Shown in pieces: positions 48,695 through 55,816 of a stretch of 62,811 nucleotides of DNA. The position numbers were made by a program, and so were the translations under genes. Origin of the DNA: Thermoplasmatales archaeon (GTDB lineage Archaea; Thermoplasmatota; E2; DHVEG-1). The notes under the pieces are model-generated. The model worked only from the letters and a program-made list of their open reading frames with translations, was not told where the DNA came from and did not search any database. Location of the stretch: assembly GCA_020350365.1 (NCBI GenBank), contig CP070712.1:1-62811 (forward strand), read 5' to 3'. Numbering within the stretch: the stretch's first letter is position 1; every line of letters starts with the position of its first letter.

Positions 48695-50020
48695 TTATAA
48701 GACATCCTTTTTCTCTTTAAATTTGATACCCAATTCCTTCAATTCGTTCAAAATTGGATTATAAATTTCTGGTATTACTGGAATATGGACTCCAGATTGA
48801 TTAATCAATCCATTTAGAATCATTTTTACAGCAATTGCTGCAGGTAGAGCAACAGTTCGAGAAATTGAAGAATCTCCATTAGGGATGCCATAATCTACCA
48901 GCGTAGAAGTAATATACTCCTTTTTTGTGGGATACTTAGCGATAAACTCATGAACCATAACTATCATGTCACGCTCTTTTTTATCAAGATACATTTTATC
49001 ATATGTCAGAACATTGAGATAATCTAGTGGACTGTCTTTTCCTTCTGGAAGTTTTAGATCGCTAAAAAGACCTAACCACCCAAGTCTTTTTATTACTGTA
49101 GAATACGTTTCAATTTTTAGAAATTCAGCAGTTTTTTCTATTAATTTTTCATTTTCTTTTGCATTTATCAAAAACCTTGTAAGATCACCATATGACTTAC
49201 CTTTAAATCCATTAACAGGCTTATCATTAAGCCATCCTAAAGCAACAATTTTTCTTAAAGTCTCACACCAACCAGTGAATCTAAATGTTCCCCTATAAAC
49301 AGTTTTTGCATCCTTTAGACCATATATATCTTTGTATGGTATTGAATCCCTATTGGGGTAATTTTCAAAGGTTCCAACACCTTGAACGTCTTGAATATAA
49401 TAATTTTCAAAAAGTTTTTCACCAGGGATAGAAACCTCTTTTCTGTTCTCAAGCCATTTTGCATCATTTCGTGATGCAAGAAGAACGCCTCTTGGTGACC
49501 ATGAGAATTTATAGCCAAATGGATTGTTATTTGCTTCAAAAGAAGGTAATGCACCAGTTGTAGATTTAAAACTAATAATTTTTCCATCATTTTCTTCAAT
49601 CTCATGAATAATTCTCATCGCAGACATATGATCAATTCCGGGGTCAAGACCACACTCATTGAGAAGAATTATACCTACATCCTTTGCTTCTTTATCTAAG
49701 GATTTCATTTCTTTACTAACATAGGAGGTTGTAACCAAATGTTTTTTATGCTTTATACAAAGATTAGCTACCTTTACATGATAATTATATGGAAGAAGAC
49801 TGACAGTTAGATCTGACTCTGATACCAACTTTTCCAAGAAGACATTATCTTTAACATTGAGCGCAACAGCTGTTCCAAATTTATGACCATTGATAATCTT
49901 TTCAGCTTTGCTTACAGTTCTGCTCGCCATTGTAACAGAAAAATTAGGCTGATCAAGTAGATATCTAACTAATGGTTTTGATACCAAACCTGCTCCAAGA
50001 ACCAACACATTATTAGACAT
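48695..50020 (-). CDS. Saccharopine dehydrogenase (L-glutamate-forming; LYS9 / AASS C-terminal-domain type)
   Basis: VLVLGAGLVSKPLVRYL Rossmann motif, GLDPGIDHM, and a Sacchrp_dh C-terminal-like region. Confidence 0.75.
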   Translation of the reverse strand: MSNNVLVLGAGLVSKPLVRYLLDQPNFSVTMASRTVSKAEKIINGHKFGTAVALNVKDNVFLEKLVSESDLTVSLLPYNYHVKVANLCIKHKKHLVTTSYVSKEMKSLDKEAKDVGIILLNECGLDPGIDHMSAMRIIHEIEENDGKIISFKSTTGALPSFEANNNPFGYKFSWSPRGVLLASRNDAKWLENRKEVSIPGEKLFENYYIQDVQGVGTFENYPNRDSIPYKDIYGLKDAKTVYRGTFRFTGWCETLRKIVALGWLNDKPVNGFKGKSYGDLTRFLINAKENEKLIEKTAEFLKIETYSTVIKRLGWLGLFSDLKLPEGKDSPLDYLNVLTYDKMYLDKKERDMIVMVHEFIAKYPTKKEYITSTLVDYGIPNGDSSISRTVALPAAIAVKMILNGLINQSGVHIPVIPEIYNPILNELKELGIKFKEKKDVL

Positions 50021-50067
50021 AAATAAATGCCTCCATAGGAAAGAAATAACCAGCGAAGTGAACTACC

Positions 50068-51363
50068 CTATAAATATTTATTGATATAAGAATAATCAGG
50101 CGTGAGAATACCCTGATATAAAATAACTGCTTTTTTTATCTCAGAAGGTAAATTGAGTTTCTCAAAATCTACTGAAAAATCAGCTCTAACAATGGATGGA
50201 ATAAAGCTCATAAGAGAATTACTGAATTCAATTGAAGATTCCTTAGGGAGTTCACAAGGAAGATTATCAACTGCTATTACAGCAATGCCATCTCCTTTGT
50301 ACCCATCAATAATATCCTCATTAAATGGATTATATACAAAAACAGGATTATCTGGTGTTGTGGCTATTTTGGTAAATTCTATTGCTCCATTAATGTCTAT
50401 ACTAATATCTCCTATTACTTGTAATTTGAATTGATTACTGTAGTTCTTTTTTACAAATTCTTCTGTAATAAGTCTAGGGTATTTATTGCTCCAATAAATA
50501 CAATTCATAAGAATGGAAAGATGTTCTAGATAGCTATGAAAAATGGATTGATACAAATGAGGATTATTATAATAATCCTGTAAATCAAACTTTTTATTTT
50601 CTTTAATGGGTTCAACTATATCTTCCTCCTTAAAAACGACTTTATAAATTACCTTATTTGAGGGATTTTTTTCTATAGTATTAATTTTTTTAGGAGCGAT
50701 CTCTTTTACTGGTAATATATCTAAAATTTCTTGAGCACCCATAGAAACATTTCCATATCCTGCAAATCCAACAACAAGAGGAGAAATTGATTCAGAAATT
50801 CCTTCTTTTTTAATTTTTTCTGCAATTCTATTAAAATGATCCCTTGTATCATCCAAATTTCTATAATCAATTGTTCTCTTAATTTCAGAAATTGGACTTT
50901 TAATTCCTTTCCATTTCATTCTTTGACCATATGCCCAAAGAGTATCAATCATACCTGCATATCCTGCATATTTTCCAAAAAATATCAAACGACGTCCTTT
51001 TTCATCTGAAACCTTTTCATAATCAATTAAATTACACCCTAATTCCATCATTTTCTTTAACATTGGCATGTTATACTTCTGACCTTTAATTGTATGTGAA
51101 AAAAACACATAAGTCTTCCCTGGTTCAAAAAAATCAAGAGGAATTTCTTTAACAGCAAAAATTACTGGAGCAGATATTCTTTCTTTAACTTGTGCCCCAG
51201 CTTTTTTATAATCATCATCTGTAAAAATTCTAATTTTTGAAGGTTGTATTATAGTTTCAATATTATGTTTATTTTTTAATTCAGTAATATGTTTAGGAGT
51301 AATTGGAACTCTTCGTTCCCATTTATTTTTGTCTTCTCTCCGAATACCCAGCGAAAAACTCAT
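50068..51363 (-). CDS. Lysine-ketoglutarate reductase-like (AlaDH/PNT family; AASS N-terminal-domain type)
   Basis: GIRREDKNKWERRVPITPKHI N-terminus, as in the LKR domain of AASS. VGFAGYGNVSMGA dinucleotide site. Confidence 0.7.
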   Translation of the reverse strand: MSFSLGIRREDKNKWERRVPITPKHITELKNKHNIETIIQPSKIRIFTDDDYKKAGAQVKERISAPVIFAVKEIPLDFFEPGKTYVFFSHTIKGQKYNMPMLKKMMELGCNLIDYEKVSDEKGRRLIFFGKYAGYAGMIDTLWAYGQRMKWKGIKSPISEIKRTIDYRNLDDTRDHFNRIAEKIKKEGISESISPLVVGFAGYGNVSMGAQEILDILPVKEIAPKKINTIEKNPSNKVIYKVVFKEEDIVEPIKENKKFDLQDYYNNPHLYQSIFHSYLEHLSILMNCIYWSNKYPRLITEEFVKKNYSNQFKLQVIGDISIDINGAIEFTKIATTPDNPVFVYNPFNEDIIDGYKGDGIAVIAVDNLPCELPKESSIEFSNSLMSFIPSIVRADFSVDFEKLNLPSEIKKAVILYQGILTPDYSYINKYL

Positions 51364-51423: not shown

Positions 51424-52506
51424 TTATTTAAATCTTAAAATCGCACCAACATGGCCAAGGTTTGCGATTTCATCACCCTCTGTAAATTCAATATTTGCAT
51501 TTGTTCTTTCTGCAAATTCAATTATTTCTTCTATGATATCAACTTCTGAAGTCTTATTATTACAATAAGGACATGATTTTTTAACTCCCTGTTCAACCAT
51601 CTGACAGCTTTCACAAATCCATCCGCGGATTTTATAGTCCTTTTCTATTATTAATAAATCGACCTGCCCATTTTTTACAGCTTGTAAAGTTTCAACAATT
51701 CCATAGGTTGCTAAACCATCCTTCAATATTTCTTGTTTTAAAAGCTGAACTGCCTTATTACTTTCTATTTTTTCTTTCTCAGCAATTAACTTAAAGGATT
51801 CTTTCAATAATTTTTGTTCGTCTTCTATGCTAATATCAATAACGTCTACAATTTTATCCCTAATCTTCTTTGATAGTATATCCAAAAATTGATTTTTAAT
51901 GGTACCTGGTCCTGCTACTATTATAGAATCATCCGAAAGTTTTTGAAGAGCCTCTGCAACTTCTGACAAAAATGCTTTAATTGCTCCCCTCCTTAATCTA
52001 TTGAATCTAGCTTGGGACCATCCACCCTTCTTATGTTTGTTTATAATATCTGTTGAAAGTTTTTTTATATCTTCAACTTTTCCAGTGGATACAGAAAATA
52101 TCTTAGCAAAATTTGAACTAATCAATAGCAATGTAAATGATTCCCATTCATCTTGGATCCTTGCCAATGGACGAATATAAGGGGATGAATCTACAGTTAG
52201 AAGATTCTGTAATTTCATTGATAATGATATATATCTAATAAAGTCATATTTATGAGAAGCAAAAATAACAATACTACCTGAAGAAATATTTCTAATTTTA
52301 TTTTCAATTTCTTCAATTGTTTTATCAAAATTCTTTAAAATATCTCCTTTTAAAATATATCTACAAGCTTTTATTCTATGATCAATGAATTTTTTATATG
52401 TATTCTTATTAGCATATAAACTTATGAAAGTATCCTCACTATCTGAATCATATATCTCTGATAGATCTTTGATTAATTTCTTTATTTCATCTGTCATTGT
52501 AAACAA
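51424..52506 (-). CDS. eRF1-fold protein (release-factor paralog; baeRF/Vms1-like) with a GGWSQ loop and a C-terminal Zn ribbon
   Basis: HKKGGWSQARFNRLRRG sits where aRF1 has GGQ. There is no NIKS-type N-domain. An eRF1 domain-3-like C-terminus carries a CESC...CPYC insertion. Confidence 0.6.
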   Translation of the reverse strand: MFTMTDEIKKLIKDLSEIYDSDSEDTFISLYANKNTYKKFIDHRIKACRYILKGDILKNFDKTIEEIENKIRNISSGSIVIFASHKYDFIRYISLSMKLQNLLTVDSSPYIRPLARIQDEWESFTLLLISSNFAKIFSVSTGKVEDIKKLSTDIINKHKKGGWSQARFNRLRRGAIKAFLSEVAEALQKLSDDSIIVAGPGTIKNQFLDILSKKIRDKIVDVIDISIEDEQKLLKESFKLIAEKEKIESNKAVQLLKQEILKDGLATYGIVETLQAVKNGQVDLLIIEKDYKIRGWICESCQMVEQGVKKSCPYCNNKTSEVDIIEEIIEFAERTNANIEFTEGDEIANLGHVGAILRFK

Positions 52507-52611
52507 CCAATGAAAATAAACATTGTATATAATTTCTTTTAATCAATATTTATACTTTCAATAAACCCTGATTAAAGAATAAAAAAGGAAAATTATATCA
52601 TATGAAATAAA

Positions 52612-53420
52612 ATGAAGCAAACAAAAGGTCCTAGTTTACCAAGTTCAGATGTTATAAAAGCTTCTGAAATAGGTCAATATTGTTATTGTTCAATTGCATG
52701 GTATCTTCAAAAATGTGGATTTAAACCAAAATCTCAATTACTTGAAAAAGGAGTCAAAAAACATGAAGAGTTGGGTAGTATAATTGAATTTACTAAAAAA
52801 AGTGATAATAAATCAAAATCTTTTGAAATAGCTGGGTATTTAACTTTAATTCTAGGAACTCTTATCTTTATTTTTGGGGTGATTTTATAGATTTTCAAAT
52901 TTGGATTGGACTTCTATTAATCCTTCTCTCATTTTTACTTTTAATCATATCAAAATTATTACATAAAAAAGTTGAAAAAATTAAAAAGAAACATCAAATC
53001 CAAAGTGGAAAAATAACATATCAGGATTTAAATATACCTGCAAAACCATTTTTTTCAAATCGATATAGAATCACAGGTAAACCAGATTATGTTATTAAAA
53101 ATAAAAATTTCTTTATTCCAATTGAGGTAAAAAGTGGATATTATGATACTCCACAAAAAAGCCATATTTTACAACTTGCTGCATATTGTCAATTATTAGA
53201 AGAAAATTATGAACGATTTGTACCATATGGTTTTATTGTTTATTCAAATAAATCTAAATTTAAAATTGCATTTGATCCAAAAATTAGATTTGAATTTGAA
53301 TCAACTGTTAAGGAAATTAGAAATAAGATGAAAACTGGAACAATAAAAAGAAATCACAATGCTTCATTTAAATGTAAAAACTGCTCAATGCGATTGAATT
53401 GTGATTTTAAATTATTATAA
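52612..53420 (+). pseudogene. Cas4-like PD-(D/E)XK nuclease with an inserted TM hairpin, interrupted by a frameshift at the T5G4 run (52871-52879)
   Basis: Part 1 (52612-52890): ASEIGQYCYCSIAWYL...GVKKHEE. Part 2 (frame 3, no start codon): GKPDYVI..IPIEVKSG..HILQLAAYCQLLEE..CKNCSMRLNCD. The stop is at 53418-53420. Confidence 0.65.
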
Positions 53421-54043: not shown

Positions 54044-55816
54044 ATGAGGATAGCTGTACTTATTAAGGATAGATGTAAATCTAAAAATTGCTCTAGAGAA
54101 TGCATAAAATTTTGTCCAAGGGTTAGAGCTGGTGATGAAACCATTTTTATGGGTGAAAACGGAAAACCAATAATTTCAGAGCAGCTATGTGTTGGATGTG
54201 GAATCTGTATACATAAATGTCCTTTTGATGCAATAAAGATAATTGGTCTTGCTGAAGAGCTTGAAACAGATCTTGTTCATCAATTTGGAAAAAATGGTTT
54301 TAGACTATTTAAACTTCCAGTTCCAAAAATGGGTACCTGCATTGGAATTCTTGGACCAAATGGTATAGGTAAAACAACAGCAATTAGGCTTCTTTCTGGA
54401 CAGATTTTACCAAATCTTGGTGATTACGATGAAACGGTTACATGGGAAGATATTGTATATTACTATTCTGGAACAGAATTACATGAACATTTTAGAAAAC
54501 TGGCAAATAATGAAATATCAAGTGTAGTAAAACCACAATATGTAGATAGATTACCAAAAATTATGAAGGGTAAAATTGGAGATGTACTAAAAAAAATAGA
54601 TAACTCAGAAAATTTTGAAAATATTGTTGATAAACTTGGAATAAAAAATATTCTAAACAAATATATTGAAAAAAGAGAAATCTCTGGTGGTGAGCTTCAA
54701 CTTGTTGCAGTTGCAGCAGCCCTTTTAAAGGATGTAGATTTATATTTTTTTGATGAACCTTCTTCTTATCTTGATATCCATCAAAGACTAAAGGTGGCCA
54801 GAATAATTAAGGAATTATCTGAAAAGAAAAAAGTAATTGTTATAGAACATGATTTAGCAGTTCTTGATTTTCTTTGTGATAACGTTCACCTTGTATATGG
54901 AGACGAAGGAGCATATGGAGTAATAACAAATGCTCGTGGTGTTAGACATGCAATAAATACCTATCTATCAGGATATCTTAAAGAAGAAAACATTAGATTT
55001 GGGGAAAAGATAGAGTTTTTTGAACATCCCCCAAAGCAAAGACAGCAAATGAACATTCTAATTTCTTATGCAGATCTGACCAAAGATTTTGAGGAATTCT
55101 CCCTTGAAATCGAAAAAGGTATTATTAGAGGAGGAGAAATAATAGGAATTGTTGGACCAAATGCTATAGGTAAAACAACTTTTGTTAAAATTCTTGCAGG
55201 GACAATAAAACCAACTGCTGGAAAAGTAGAATATGATATAAAGGTCAGTTATAAACCTCAATACATAACACCAGATTACAAAGGAAGTGTAAGAGAATTT
55301 TTAGAGTCAAACTCCCAACAAATATTTACATCCTCATTTTATAAAGCAGAAATATTTGACGCATTTAACCTAAAATATCTTCTGGATAAACAAATCGAAA
55401 CGCTATCTGGTGGAGAATTACAAAGAGTTGCAACAGCAAACTGTCTTGTTCAAGAAGCTGATATATATCTTATAGATGAGCCCTCCGCCTATCTTGATTC
55501 TGAACAAAGAATGATTACTTCAAGAACTGTAAGAAGGGTTATTGAAAAGGTAGGAAAATCAGCATTAGTAGTTGATCATGATGTTTATTTCATTGATATG
55601 ATAAGTGACGCGTTAATTGTCTTTGAAGGTGAACCGGGAAAAAATGGAAAAGGATGTGGACCTTATAGTTTGCATGAGGGCATGAACCGTTTTCTAAAAG
55701 ATGTAGACATAACATTCAGGAGGGATGAGGAGACCCATAGACCACGGGTGAACAAACCAGATTCATTTATGGATAGAAAACAAAGAAAAGAAGGAGAATA
55801 CTATTATAGTATTTGA
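54044..55816 (+). CDS. abce1: ABCE1 (RNase L inhibitor homolog; ribosome recycling ATPase)
   Basis: N-terminal Fe-S domain (CKSKNC..CIKFCP, CVGCGICIHKCP) plus two ABC cassettes (GPNGIGKTT x2, LSGGELQ x2). Confidence 0.95.
   Translation: MRIAVLIKDRCKSKNCSRECIKFCPRVRAGDETIFMGENGKPIISEQLCVGCGICIHKCPFDAIKIIGLAEELETDLVHQFGKNGFRLFKLPVPKMGTCIGILGPNGIGKTTAIRLLSGQILPNLGDYDETVTWEDIVYYYSGTELHEHFRKLANNEISSVVKPQYVDRLPKIMKGKIGDVLKKIDNSENFENIVDKLGIKNILNKYIEKREISGGELQLVAVAAALLKDVDLYFFDEPSSYLDIHQRLKVARIIKELSEKKKVIVIEHDLAVLDFLCDNVHLVYGDEGAYGVITNARGVRHAINTYLSGYLKEENIRFGEKIEFFEHPPKQRQQMNILISYADLTKDFEEFSLEIEKGIIRGGEIIGIVGPNAIGKTTFVKILAGTIKPTAGKVEYDIKVSYKPQYITPDYKGSVREFLESNSQQIFTSSFYKAEIFDAFNLKYLLDKQIETLSGGELQRVATANCLVQEADIYLIDEPSAYLDSEQRMITSRTVRRVIEKVGKSALVVDHDVYFIDMISDALIVFEGEPGKNGKGCGPYSLHEGMNRFLKDVDITFRRDEETHRPRVNKPDSFMDRKQRKEGEYYYSI

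What the first reader, a model, noticed from the sequence alone, without database searches (positions are those of the whole stretch)
51424..52506. eRF1-fold paralog with GGWSQ in place of GGQ, no NIKS-type decoding domain and a Zn-ribbon insert, located 1.5 kb from ABCE1
The central and C-terminal domains resemble eRF1 domains 2 and 3: HKKGGWSQARFNRLRRG, ATYGIVETLQAVKNGQVDLLII and GHVGAILRF. The Gln is displaced (GG-W-S-Q), as in the Vms1/baeRF-type GSQ loops I recall. The N-domain is unrelated to aRF1 or Pelota, and a CESC...CPYC ribbon interrupts domain 3. It could be a ribosome-rescue or peptidyl-tRNA-hydrolase factor distinct from canonical aRF1/Pelota. ABCE1 is close by.
Basis: partly seen in the sequence, partly recalled or inferred. 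Interest (0 to 1): 0.6.

Follow-up and report, generated by a model that had tools for sequence, protein, structure and literature searches.

The report
Archaeal GGW release-factor paralogue (baeRF-10)

Summary
The ORF at 51424-52506 (-) is real. Its likely true start is the ATG at 52497, giving 357 aa. The genome also holds a canonical aRF1 (with GGQ) and a Pelota, so this is not the genome's only orthologue of either.

It scores above threshold only for Pfam baeRF_family10 (PF18854). It falls below the cut-offs for aRF1, Pelota, Balon and acVLRF1. In a Pelota-rooted tree it sits in a clade sister to aRF1 (97/94). That clade also holds bacterial baeRF-10 proteins and, on a long branch, mycobacterial Balon.

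A high-confidence AlphaFold model (pLDDT 92.5) has the three-domain aeRF1 fold. It superposes best on ribosome-bound Balon (TM 0.76).

- The Trp sits exactly at the Gln position. The Ser-Gln after it is also present in local aRF1 (GGQSQ).
- The N-domain is a shortened aRF1-type N-domain without NIKS, not an unrelated one.
- The Zn ribbon is the ancestral aRF1 feature, not an insert.
- ABCE1 proximity is local synteny only.

Across the family, GG and the flanking residues are invariant. The Gln position is W, M, C or F, and Q in about 1-3% of members.

Most likely function: a stop-codon-independent A-site and peptidyl-transferase-centre (PTC) factor for hibernation or rescue. Residual hydrolase activity is not excluded.

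The family is already known by computation, and this scan found it earlier in another genome.

The parts
51424..52506 (-). Whole ORF as listed (360 aa from TTG, including the stop codon at 51424-51426): aRF1 paralogue of baeRF-1 family 10
   Evidence: ORF. Pfam PF18854 scores 62.7 bits against a cut-off of 27.1. More than 1100 homologues at 60-91% identity.
52495..52497 (-). Probable true start codon ATG (MTDE..., a 357-aa product)
   Evidence: Nearly all homologues are 357 aa and start at this Met. Sequence context.
52526..52532 (-). TATA-like TTATATA about 30 nt upstream of the ATG (inferred archaeal promoter, near-leaderless mRNA)
   Evidence: Read directly from the sequence. This is inference only; no transcript data were available.
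52192..52506 (-). N-domain (residues 1-105): a shortened aRF1-type N-domain with YILK in place of NIKS and no YxCxxxF
   Evidence: hhalign against aRF1 N-domains: probability 87%, E 3.7e-6. Against Pelota N-domains: probability 0.08%. The profile alignment to 4af1 covers residues 19-118.
51802..52191 (-). Middle (M) domain, residues 106-235 (eRF1_2 / baeRF_family10)
   Evidence: Pfam hits at residues 109-231 and 125-233. The AlphaFold model is confident here.
51991..52035 (-). Catalytic-loop homologue HKKGGWSQARFNRLR (residues 158-172). GGWSQ itself is 52012-52026, with W163 at the canonical Gln position.
   Evidence: Gap-free alignment to aRF1/eRF1 GGQS. G161, G162, S164, Q165 and R172 are invariant in 121 sequences. 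Residue 163 counts are W115, M55, C47, F7, Q2 in 227 members, with at least 25 changes on the tree.
51427..51801 (-). C-domain, residues 236-360 (eRF1_3)
   Evidence: Pfam PF03465 at residues 248-360, 1.1e-9. The C-terminal LGHVGAILRFK aligns to aRF1 GGYAGILRY.
51562..51615 (-). Four-Cys zinc ribbon C298-x2-C301...C312-x2-C315 within domain 3
   Evidence: C298, C312 and C315 are invariant and C301 is at least 90% conserved in the diverse alignments. The ribbon sits at the same position in this genome's canonical aRF1 and in 4af1.

Best explanation
[quoted passage not shown] It belongs to baeRF-1 family 10, the group recently called 'potential archaeal Balon'.

Shown here: it has the full three-domain aeRF1 architecture. 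It coexists with a canonical aRF1 and a Pelota. Its N-domain has lost the stop-codon-reading motifs. Its M-domain keeps an eRF1-like GG loop with basic flanks, but carries Trp (Met, Cys or Phe in relatives) at the catalytic Gln position. Its C-domain keeps the aRF1 zinc ribbon.

Inferred mechanism: the protein enters the ribosomal A site independently of the codon there. It is probably escorted by aEF1-alpha, as aRF1, Pelota and Balon are by their GTPases. It inserts the GG-Trp loop into the peptidyl-transferase centre, where the bulky hydrophobic side chain packs in place of the water-coordinating Gln. The most likely outcome is occupation and protection of idle or stalled ribosomes, that is, Balon-like hibernation or a holding state. 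Routine peptide release is less likely.

The family assignment is near certain (about 0.95). The hibernation or holding function is the leading but untested reading (about 0.5).
For: Family and identity:
- Pfam baeRF_family10 is the top hit, and all 70 diverse relatives match it.
- In the Pelota-rooted tree, aRF1 is monophyletic (100/100). The window protein falls in a sister clade (97/94) with bacterial baeRF-10 proteins and Balon.
- The canonical aRF1 scores 351.9 bits, and Pelota is present in the same genome.

Fold:
- The AlphaFold model has pLDDT 92.5 and pTM 0.86.
- Foldseek's best global superpositions are ribosome-bound Balon: 8v9l_z at TM 0.76/0.73 and rmsd 4.4 A, Rv2629 at 0.71, and P. 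urativorans Balon at 0.68. Accommodated eRF1 gives 0.60 and Pelota at most 0.44.
- A profile of the family matches Balon MSMEG_1130 over its full length at 4e-35.

No decoding:
- NIKS aligns to YILK, and YxCxxxF is not conserved.

Loop:
- GG and the flanks are invariant. The Gln position is W, M, C or F, with Q in 2 of 227 members.

Accessory status:
- It was found in 74 of 301 sampled Thermoplasmatota genomes and is patchy within genera.
- Some copies carry in-frame stops.

Literature:
- Balon is an experimentally shown A-site hibernation factor (PMC10901736).
- Several baeRF-1 families are linked to HPF genes (PMC6514570).
- Archaeal homologues lacking NIKS and GGQ were proposed as potential Balon (PMC13324472).
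Against: There is no experimental datum for any archaeal or bacterial family-10 member.

Unlike Balon, this family keeps the two glycines and an aRF1-length loop under very strong constraint. True non-catalytic relatives (Pelota, Balon) lost them. This hints at a more demanding PTC role than passive occupancy.

Q165 is invariant here but variable in aRF1/eRF1. Burroughs & Aravind (PMC6514570) single out family 10 as possibly catalytically active.

Published work says the Gln side chain has mainly a packing role and that Gln substitutions do not fully abolish release (PMC5799190; Seit-Nebi 2000, as cited in PMC12440015).

Balon-type NCBIfam models score far below their cut-offs.

No conserved neighbourhood with hibernation or translation genes was seen across the family.

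The high TM-score to Balon partly reflects predicted inter-domain orientation, which is flexible in this fold.
Confidence: 0.5

Rival explanations
1. It is an active, stop-codon-independent peptidyl-tRNA hydrolase, functionally like ArfB/ICT1 or Vms1. The retained GG backbone geometry does the chemistry. Either the backbone NH at W163 or the invariant Q165 (a G-x-x-Q arrangement) positions the water, releasing peptides from stalled ribosomes.
For: GG, S164, Q165 and the basic flanks are invariant across members down to 25% identity, and the loop length equals that of aRF1. GG is the element whose mutation abolishes release, whereas Gln substitutions leave partial activity (PMC5799190; reference 68 in PMC12440015). 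Burroughs & Aravind flag family 10 as potentially active (PMC6514570). NCBI names some members 'Vms1/Ankzf1 family peptidyl-tRNA hydrolase'. A few members carry GGQ.
Against: Gln at the canonical position is strongly avoided (2 of 227), in favour of bulky hydrophobic residues that cannot coordinate water. Q165 aligns to a non-catalytic position that is also Gln in local canonical aRF1, and it lies in the first turn of the following helix in the model. The NCBI names are automatic. The acVLRF1 NCBIfam score of 21.6 is far below the cut-off of 125.
Confidence: 0.25
2. It is a Pelota-like, non-hydrolytic rescue or recycling adaptor. It binds stalled or vacant ribosomes and recruits ABCE1 to split the subunits.
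For: It has the aeRF1 architecture with an intact C-domain and no decoding motifs. ABCE1 lies 1.5 kb away in this window and in 12 other loci.
Against: A canonical Pelota is already present. ABCE1 linkage is confined to close relatives, is divergent in orientation, and is not operonic. Pelota has no GG loop, so the strong constraint on the loop would go unexplained. Structural similarity to Pelota is low (TM at most 0.44).
Confidence: 0.15
3. It is an alternative release factor for a subset of stop codons or a reassigned code, or a decaying duplicate of aRF1 without function.
For: It is annotated by IMG as 'peptide chain release factor subunit 1'. The TIGR03676 match is 1.5e-36.
Against: The TIGR03676 score of 126 is well below the cut-off of 234.7 and covers only domains 2-3. 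NIKS and YxCxxxF are absent. Canonical aRF1 with NIKS and GGQ is present in every relative checked. ORFs in the window read normally under table 11. Decay is excluded by 60-90% identity across more than 1100 homologues, many invariant columns, and a confident fold.
Confidence: 0.03

Closest known systems
baeRF-1 family 10 (Pfam PF18854; Burroughs & Aravind 2019, PMC6514570); NCBI name 'baeRF10 domain-containing protein'
   Same: It is the top-scoring model and above threshold (62.7 bits against 27.1). All 70 diverse relatives match it. It shares the three-domain aeRF1 architecture, the conserved Gln-containing loop, and coexistence with the primary release factor.
   Different: The family was described as bacterial. 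This member belongs to a large archaeal subclade (Thermoplasmatota, Methanosarcinales, Archaeoglobi, ANME-1). That subclade keeps a four-Cys zinc ribbon, whereas many baeRF families have a two-strand remnant. As far as I found, the paper does not comment on the Trp at the canonical Gln position.
Balon (P. urativorans AOC03_06830; M. smegmatis MSMEG_1130; M. tuberculosis Rv2629), the bacterial A-site hibernation factor (PMC10901736); and the 'potential archaeal Balon' of Madru et al. 2026 (PMC13324472)
   Same: It has the aeRF1 fold without NIKS and without GGQ. It gives the best global structural superposition (TM 0.68-0.76). It lies in the same clade, sister to aRF1. Its taxonomic distribution matches the reported archaeal 'potential Balon' (Thermoplasmatota lineages, Methanosarcinia) and it always occurs with aeRF1.
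   Different: Balon has no GG loop; it has a lasso loop and a bL27 trap, and archaea lack bL27. Balon has a beta-hairpin instead of the zinc ribbon. It lies on a very long branch (2.79) within a bacterial subclade. Balon NCBIfam equivalog models score 46-72 bits here against cut-offs of 320-480. This protein is therefore Balon-like, not a Balon orthologue.
Canonical aRF1/eRF1 (TIGR03676; PDB 4af1, 3agk, 5lzu)
   Same: It gives the best sequence and Foldseek E-values (2.8e-44 with the family profile; 1.1e-23). The loop HKKGGWSQARFNRLR shares 9 of 15 residues with human HGRGGQSALRFARLR and with the genome's own HGRGGQSQRRFERLT. The Zn ribbon is at the same site, and the C-terminal ...ILRF/Y is shared.
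   Different: It scores below the curated cut-off (126 against 234.7). The N-domain is about 40 residues shorter and lacks NIKS and YxCxxxF. The catalytic Gln is replaced by Trp. It forms a separate clade.
Pelota/Dom34 (TIGR00111)
   Same: It is a codon-independent member of the same superfamily, with a homologous central and C-terminal domain.
   Different: It scores 36.6 bits against a cut-off of 177.65. The N-domain is not the Pelota Sm-like barrel (hhalign probability 0.08%). Pelota has no GG loop. TM-scores are at most 0.44. A bona fide Pelota is present elsewhere in the genome.
Vms1/ANKZF1 and VLRF-1 families (GSQ/TAQ loop)
   Same: It has a G-x-x-Q arrangement if Q165 is counted. The Pfam acVLRF1 model matches the M-domain (45.9 bits), and NCBI's automatic naming follows that.
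   Different: The acVLRF1 hit overlaps stronger hits from the same clan. NCBIfam acVLRF1 scores 21.6 against 125. According to PMC6514570, VLRF-1 families lack the C-terminal (Pelota-type) domain or the N-domain, and both are present here.

Membership tests
baeRF-1 family 10 (Pfam PF18854) | Score at or above Pfam's gathering threshold, and the best-scoring model of the clan on the M-domain | tested here: met
   62.7 bits against 27.1. It is the top hit. 70 of 70 diverse relatives also match, with a best E-value of 1.1e-36.
baeRF-1 family 10 (Pfam PF18854) | Three-domain aeRF1-like architecture with a conserved Gln in the catalytic loop, coexisting with the organism's primary release factor (PMC6514570) | tested here: met
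   The N, M and C domains are modelled at pLDDT 92.5. Q165 is invariant. A canonical aRF1 is in the same genome.
Balon (NCBIfam NF052287/NF052288/NF052289; PMC10901736) | Equivalog HMM score above the curated cut-off | tested here: not met
   71.6 against 330, 67.4 against 480, and 46.4 against 320.
Balon (NCBIfam NF052287/NF052288/NF052289; PMC10901736) | aeRF1 fold lacking NIKS and GGQ | tested here: met
   Foldseek TM is 0.68-0.76 to Balon chains. NIKS is absent. The sequence is GGW, not GGQ. However, the GG and the aRF1-length loop are retained, unlike in Balon.
Balon (NCBIfam NF052287/NF052288/NF052289; PMC10901736) | Lasso loop and bL27 trap in the M-domain; beta-hairpin in place of the Zn ribbon in the C-domain | tested here: not met
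   The alignment to MSMEG_1130 shows a different, GG-less loop in Balon and no Cys ribbon there. The window protein has an eRF1-type loop and a four-Cys ribbon.
Balon (NCBIfam NF052287/NF052288/NF052289; PMC10901736) | Binds the A site of idle or translating ribosomes with EF-Tu/aEF1-alpha and protects them | not testable with these tools
   This needs biochemistry or cryo-EM.
aRF1/eRF1 (TIGR03676) | Equivalog score above the cut-off over the full length | tested here: not met
   126.1 bits against 234.7, matching only model positions 113-402. The genome's real aRF1 scores 351.9.
aRF1/eRF1 (TIGR03676) | NIKS, YxCxxxF and GGQ motifs | tested here: not met
   NIKS aligns to YILK. YxCxxxF aligns to unconserved residues. 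GGQ is GGW.
Pelota/Dom34 (TIGR00111) | Equivalog score above the cut-off and a Sm-like N-terminal barrel | tested here: not met
   36.6 bits against 177.65. N-domain hhalign probability is 0.08%.
Vms1-like VLRF-1 (acVLRF1 NF041024 / PF18859) | NCBIfam score above the cut-off; an architecture lacking the aeRF1 C-domain (aVLRF-1) or the N-domain (acVLRF-1) | tested here: not met
   21.6 bits against 125. Both the N and C domains are present. The Pfam acVLRF1 hit (45.9 bits) is an overlapping, weaker hit from the same clan.

The most novel reading that the evidence does not exclude
The GG[W/M/C/F]SQ proteins may be a mechanistically distinct class and not simply 'archaeal Balon'. In this reading, an eRF1-like factor fully accommodates into the peptidyl-transferase centre. 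There it either uses a hydrophobic plug to seal and protect the P-site ester or the empty PTC, or it works as a codon-independent hydrolase through a re-wired G-x-x-Q loop. This archaeal clade would also represent the slow-evolving source lineage from which the bacterial baeRF-1 and Balon radiation arose.
Probability: 0.25. Interest if true: 0.65.

Novelty: new member of a known kind. Interest (0 to 1): 0.4.

Why it matters
Archaeal ribosome hibernation and rescue are only now being mapped (HibA, Dri, aRDF, Sri, AHA). A third aRF1-type factor is present in about a quarter of sampled Thermoplasmatota and in Methanosarcinales, Archaeoglobi and ANME-1. It is a concrete, testable candidate.

It is more eRF1-like than Balon: GG is retained, the loop has the same length, and the Zn ribbon is intact. 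It is therefore a natural experiment on what the GGQ glutamine does. It is also a plausible intermediate in the evolution of a hibernation factor from a release factor.

Cultured hosts exist (Methanolobus psychrotolerans, Ca. Methanocrinis alkalitolerans, Methanothrix), so the question can be addressed experimentally. For annotation, the current labels 'peptide chain release factor subunit 1' and 'Vms1/Ankzf1 family peptidyl-tRNA hydrolase' are not supported.

Tried and rejected
- The first AlphaFold run used 21 close homologues and gave a poor model (pLDDT 56).
- The search for related loci with the very diverse alignment A2 failed because no conserved stretch was available. It was repeated with a KKGGWSQ subset. 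That seeding pattern biases the loci towards GGW members, so residue counts were taken from the protein searches instead.
- I looked for functional linkage in the gene neighbourhood. Only clade-local synteny appeared: AlaDh_PNT-like and saccharopine dehydrogenase genes downstream, a split Cas4-like gene upstream, and ABCE1 in 13 of 81 loci. Nothing is shared with Methanosarcinales or Archaeoglobi. ABCE1 was rejected as evidence.
- I considered whether this is the Methanosarcina 'aRF1-2' discussed for pyrrolysine decoding. The paper describes that copy as a lineage-specific aRF1 duplication (PMC12626013), and no Methanosarcina appeared among my loci. I did not pursue it.
- I searched the genome for an HPF/RaiA domain (PF02482) and found none. 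This is weak evidence: the genome has masked N-runs, and the model missed three of the four archaeal control genomes.
- Model coordinates are not exposed to scripts. I could not dock the loop into a ribosome or measure where W163 and Q165 point.
Full report
**1. Observation**

The ORF listing finds a 360-aa ORF at 51424..52506 on the minus strand. Nearly all homologues are 357 aa and begin at the fourth residue (MTDE/MTEN...). An ATG lies at 52497-52495, with a TTATATA element about 30 nt upstream. The true start is therefore probably 52497; that is inference. ABCE1 is confirmed at 54044-55816 (+) by Fer4_RLI plus two ABC domains. It is 1538 bp away and divergently oriented.

**2. Family assignment**

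Pfam gives these hits:
- baeRF_family10 (PF18854): 6.1e-17, 62.7 bits against a cut-off of 27.1
- eRF1_2: 9.6e-17
- acVLRF1: 8.4e-12
- eRF1_3: 1.1e-9

NCBIfam puts it below every curated cut-off:
- aRF1 TIGR03676: 126 against 234.7, covering only model positions 113-402
- The three Balon-type hibernation-factor equivalogs: 46-72 bits against 320-480
- Pelota: 36.6 against 177.65
- acVLRF1: 21.6 against 125

The same genome is one 1.82-Mb contig. It encodes a canonical aRF1 (351.9 bits; HGRGGQSQRRFERL; its own CTSC...CPKC ribbon) and a Pelota. Both are partly hidden by masked N-runs.

**3. The family at large**

The word-indexed search returns more than 1100 proteins at 60-91% identity, nearly all 357 aa. 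The exhaustive search of 50%-identity representatives gives 2511 hits, 107 of them below 1e-30. Full-length relatives of about 360-380 aa extend down to about 25% identity. All 70 diverse members I aligned match PF18854.

Source names include Thermoplasmatales and Thermoplasmata MAGs, ANME-1/Methanophagales and Halobacteriota. Bacterial names include WOR-3, Planctomycetota and Caldilineaceae. NCBI labels include 'baeRF10 domain-containing protein' and 'Vms1/Ankzf1 family peptidyl-tRNA hydrolase'.

A scan of GTDB species genomes with the pattern KKGGWSQxR found 289 confirmed loci. The best 80 are all archaeal: Thermoplasmatota, Archaeoglobaceae, Methanothrix/Methanocrinis and Methanolobus, including the cultured M. 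psychrotolerans YSF-03.

In a sample of 301 Thermoplasmatota genomes, the paralogue (E at most 1e-40) is present in 74. The distribution is very patchy: 17/35 in the window's own family, 21/24 in one other, and 0/36 and 0/42 in two large families. It is patchy even within genera. A few copies carry in-frame stops. This is the signature of an accessory gene.

The distribution matches the 'potential archaeal Balon' reported by Madru et al. 2026. They describe it in several Thermoplasmatota lineages and 30% of Methanosarcinia, lacking NIKS and GGQ, monophyletic, and always with aeRF1 (PMC13324472). An earlier follow-up in this scan reached the same assignment on another genome.

**4. Anatomy, corrected**

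*(a) The loop.* HMMER aligns HKKGGWSQARFNRLR to aRF1/eRF1 ...GGQS... without a gap. A. pernix aRF1 reads GGQSQRRYER, and the family consensus is GGWSQxRYQR. W163 is therefore at the catalytic Gln position. The Ser-Gln that follows is inherited, because this genome's aRF1 and eight relatives' aRF1s read GGQSQRRFERL.
- Across 121 sequences, G161, G162, S164, Q165 and R172 are invariant.
- The residue at position 163 is W115, M55, C47, F7, Q2 in 227 archaeal members, and it changes at least 25 times on their tree.
- In the 50%-identity representatives it is W88, M19, Q4, C3 and others.
- The site is therefore selected for a bulky hydrophobic or sulfur side chain and against Gln, while everything around it is frozen.
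- Balon has no GG loop at all.

*(b) The N-domain.* Taken alone, it matches aRF1 N-domains (hhalign probability 87%, E 3.7e-6, 78 columns). It does not match Pelota N-domains (probability 0.08%). NIKS aligns to YILK. The YxCxxxF region is not conserved. It is a shortened aRF1-type N-domain that cannot read stop codons.

*(c) The zinc ribbon.* C298/C301/C312/C315 occupy the same site as the ribbon of canonical archaeal aRF1. They are nearly invariant. Burroughs & Aravind note that many bacterial baeRF families have only a two-strand remnant there.

**5. Structure**

With a 121-sequence alignment, AlphaFold2 gives mean pLDDT 92.5 and pTM 0.86. Foldseek against the PDB gives:
- aRF1 4af1: best E-value, 1.1e-23, TM 0.58
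- Ribosome-bound Balon: best global superpositions. 8v9l_z has TM 0.76/0.73 and rmsd 4.4 A, Rv2629 has 0.71, and P. urativorans Balon has 0.68
- Accommodated eRF1: about 0.60
- Pelota: at most 0.44

TM-scores for this flexible three-domain fold depend on the predicted domain arrangement, so this is supportive and not decisive.

**6. Phylogeny**

I built an IQ-TREE tree (LG+C20+F+G4) of 49 sequences, rooted on Pelota.
- Canonical aRF1 is monophyletic (100/100).
- All family-10-type proteins plus Balon form its sister clade (97/94).
- The archaeal GGWSQ proteins group together (89/91).
- MSMEG_1130 Balon sits on a very long branch (2.79) inside a bacterial subclade (97/84), together with representatives that have lost the GG.

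The window protein is thus Balon-like by clade and fold, but it is not a Balon orthologue. It is much closer to the aRF1 ancestor.

**7. Context**

Clustering ORFs from 81 loci shows one conserved arrangement only among close Thermoplasmatota relatives:
- The gene is followed after about 62 nt, on the same strand, by an AlaDh_PNT-like gene (26 loci).
- A saccharopine dehydrogenase gene follows that (22 loci).
- A split Cas4-like gene lies divergently upstream (20-21 loci).
- ABCE1 lies within 6 kb in 13 loci.

Methanosarcinales, Archaeoglobi and the other groups have unrelated neighbours. The ABCE1 proximity is therefore not functional evidence.

**8. Mechanism**

*Shown:* aeRF1 architecture, loss of the decoding motifs, a retained GG loop with a hydrophobic residue at the Gln site, a retained C-domain and ribbon, coexistence with aRF1 and Pelota, and accessory distribution.

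*Inferred:* codon-independent A-site binding, probably with aEF1-alpha, and insertion of the loop into the PTC.

The function could go two ways.
- *For a non-hydrolytic hibernation or holding role:* kinship and fold similarity to Balon (PMC10901736), the HPF linkage of baeRF families (PMC6514570), avoidance of Gln, and accessory status.
- *For residual or re-wired hydrolase activity:* the invariant GG, which is the element whose mutation abolishes release, while the Gln side chain has a 'packing role' and its substitutions do not entirely abolish activity (PMC5799190; reference 68 in PMC12440015). Also the invariant Q165, and the remark by Burroughs & Aravind that family 10 may be active.

I rate hibernation or holding at about 0.5, hydrolase at about 0.25, Pelota-like recycling at about 0.15, and other readings at less than 0.1.

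**9. Novelty**

The family is catalogued in Pfam (2019) and was flagged as 'potential archaeal Balon' in 2026. This scan has met it before. The window adds another member.

What I did not find stated in the papers read is the quantitative pattern at the Gln site: W, M, C or F, at least 25 switches, and Q in about 1-3% of members, next to an otherwise frozen eRF1-like loop. That sets these proteins apart from Balon and makes a sharp experimental question.

Noticed in passing
window 52612-53420 (+): The 92-aa ORF divergently upstream (ASEIGQYCYCS...) is the N-terminal piece of a split Cas4-like PD-(D/E)XK nuclease with a transmembrane stretch. In relatives it is followed by a 168-aa ORF that matches Cas_Cas4 (5e-14) and PDDEXK_1. 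The pair recurs next to the baeRF-10 gene in 20-21 of 81 loci.
   Followed up: partly
window 48695-51363 (-): An AlaDh_PNT-like gene (431 aa) and a saccharopine dehydrogenase gene (441 aa) lie directly downstream on the same strand, with a gap of about 60 nt. This arrangement is conserved in 22-26 related loci, so the paralogue may be co-transcribed with a lysine/saccharopine-type metabolic pair. No functional link is apparent.
   Followed up: partly
L003 (G000:C1:1241380-1244940): The genome's Pelota gene lies immediately next to an NFACT/Rqc2-type gene (NFACT-R_1 1e-32, NFACT_N 3e-20). This is a compact ribosome-rescue and RQC gene pair.
   Followed up: partly
L001, L003 (own genome): Runs of N mask part of the canonical aRF1 (N-domain) and of Pelota (C-terminal half). 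Their full sequences could not be read, and the Pelota score falls just below the cut-off for that reason.
   Followed up: no
P0017 and P0093 (same 1.07-Mb contig of a Thermoplasmatales MAG): One genome carries two copies of the paralogue, one with GGC and one with GGQ at the catalytic-loop position. The GGQ copy branches just outside the GGC/GGW group.
   Followed up: partly
L048 ('Promethearchaeota' MAG) and P0362 ('[Eubacterium] cellulosolvens'): Both labelled sequences nest inside the archaeal Thermoplasmatota/ANME subclade. L048 also shares the Thermoplasmatota-type Cas4-like neighbours. This suggests mis-binning, contamination or recent transfer.
   Followed up: no
L010 (G014:C1), G263:C62, G277:C173: Some relatives' copies carry in-frame stop codons or are split in two. 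This is consistent with occasional pseudogenisation of an accessory gene.
   Followed up: no
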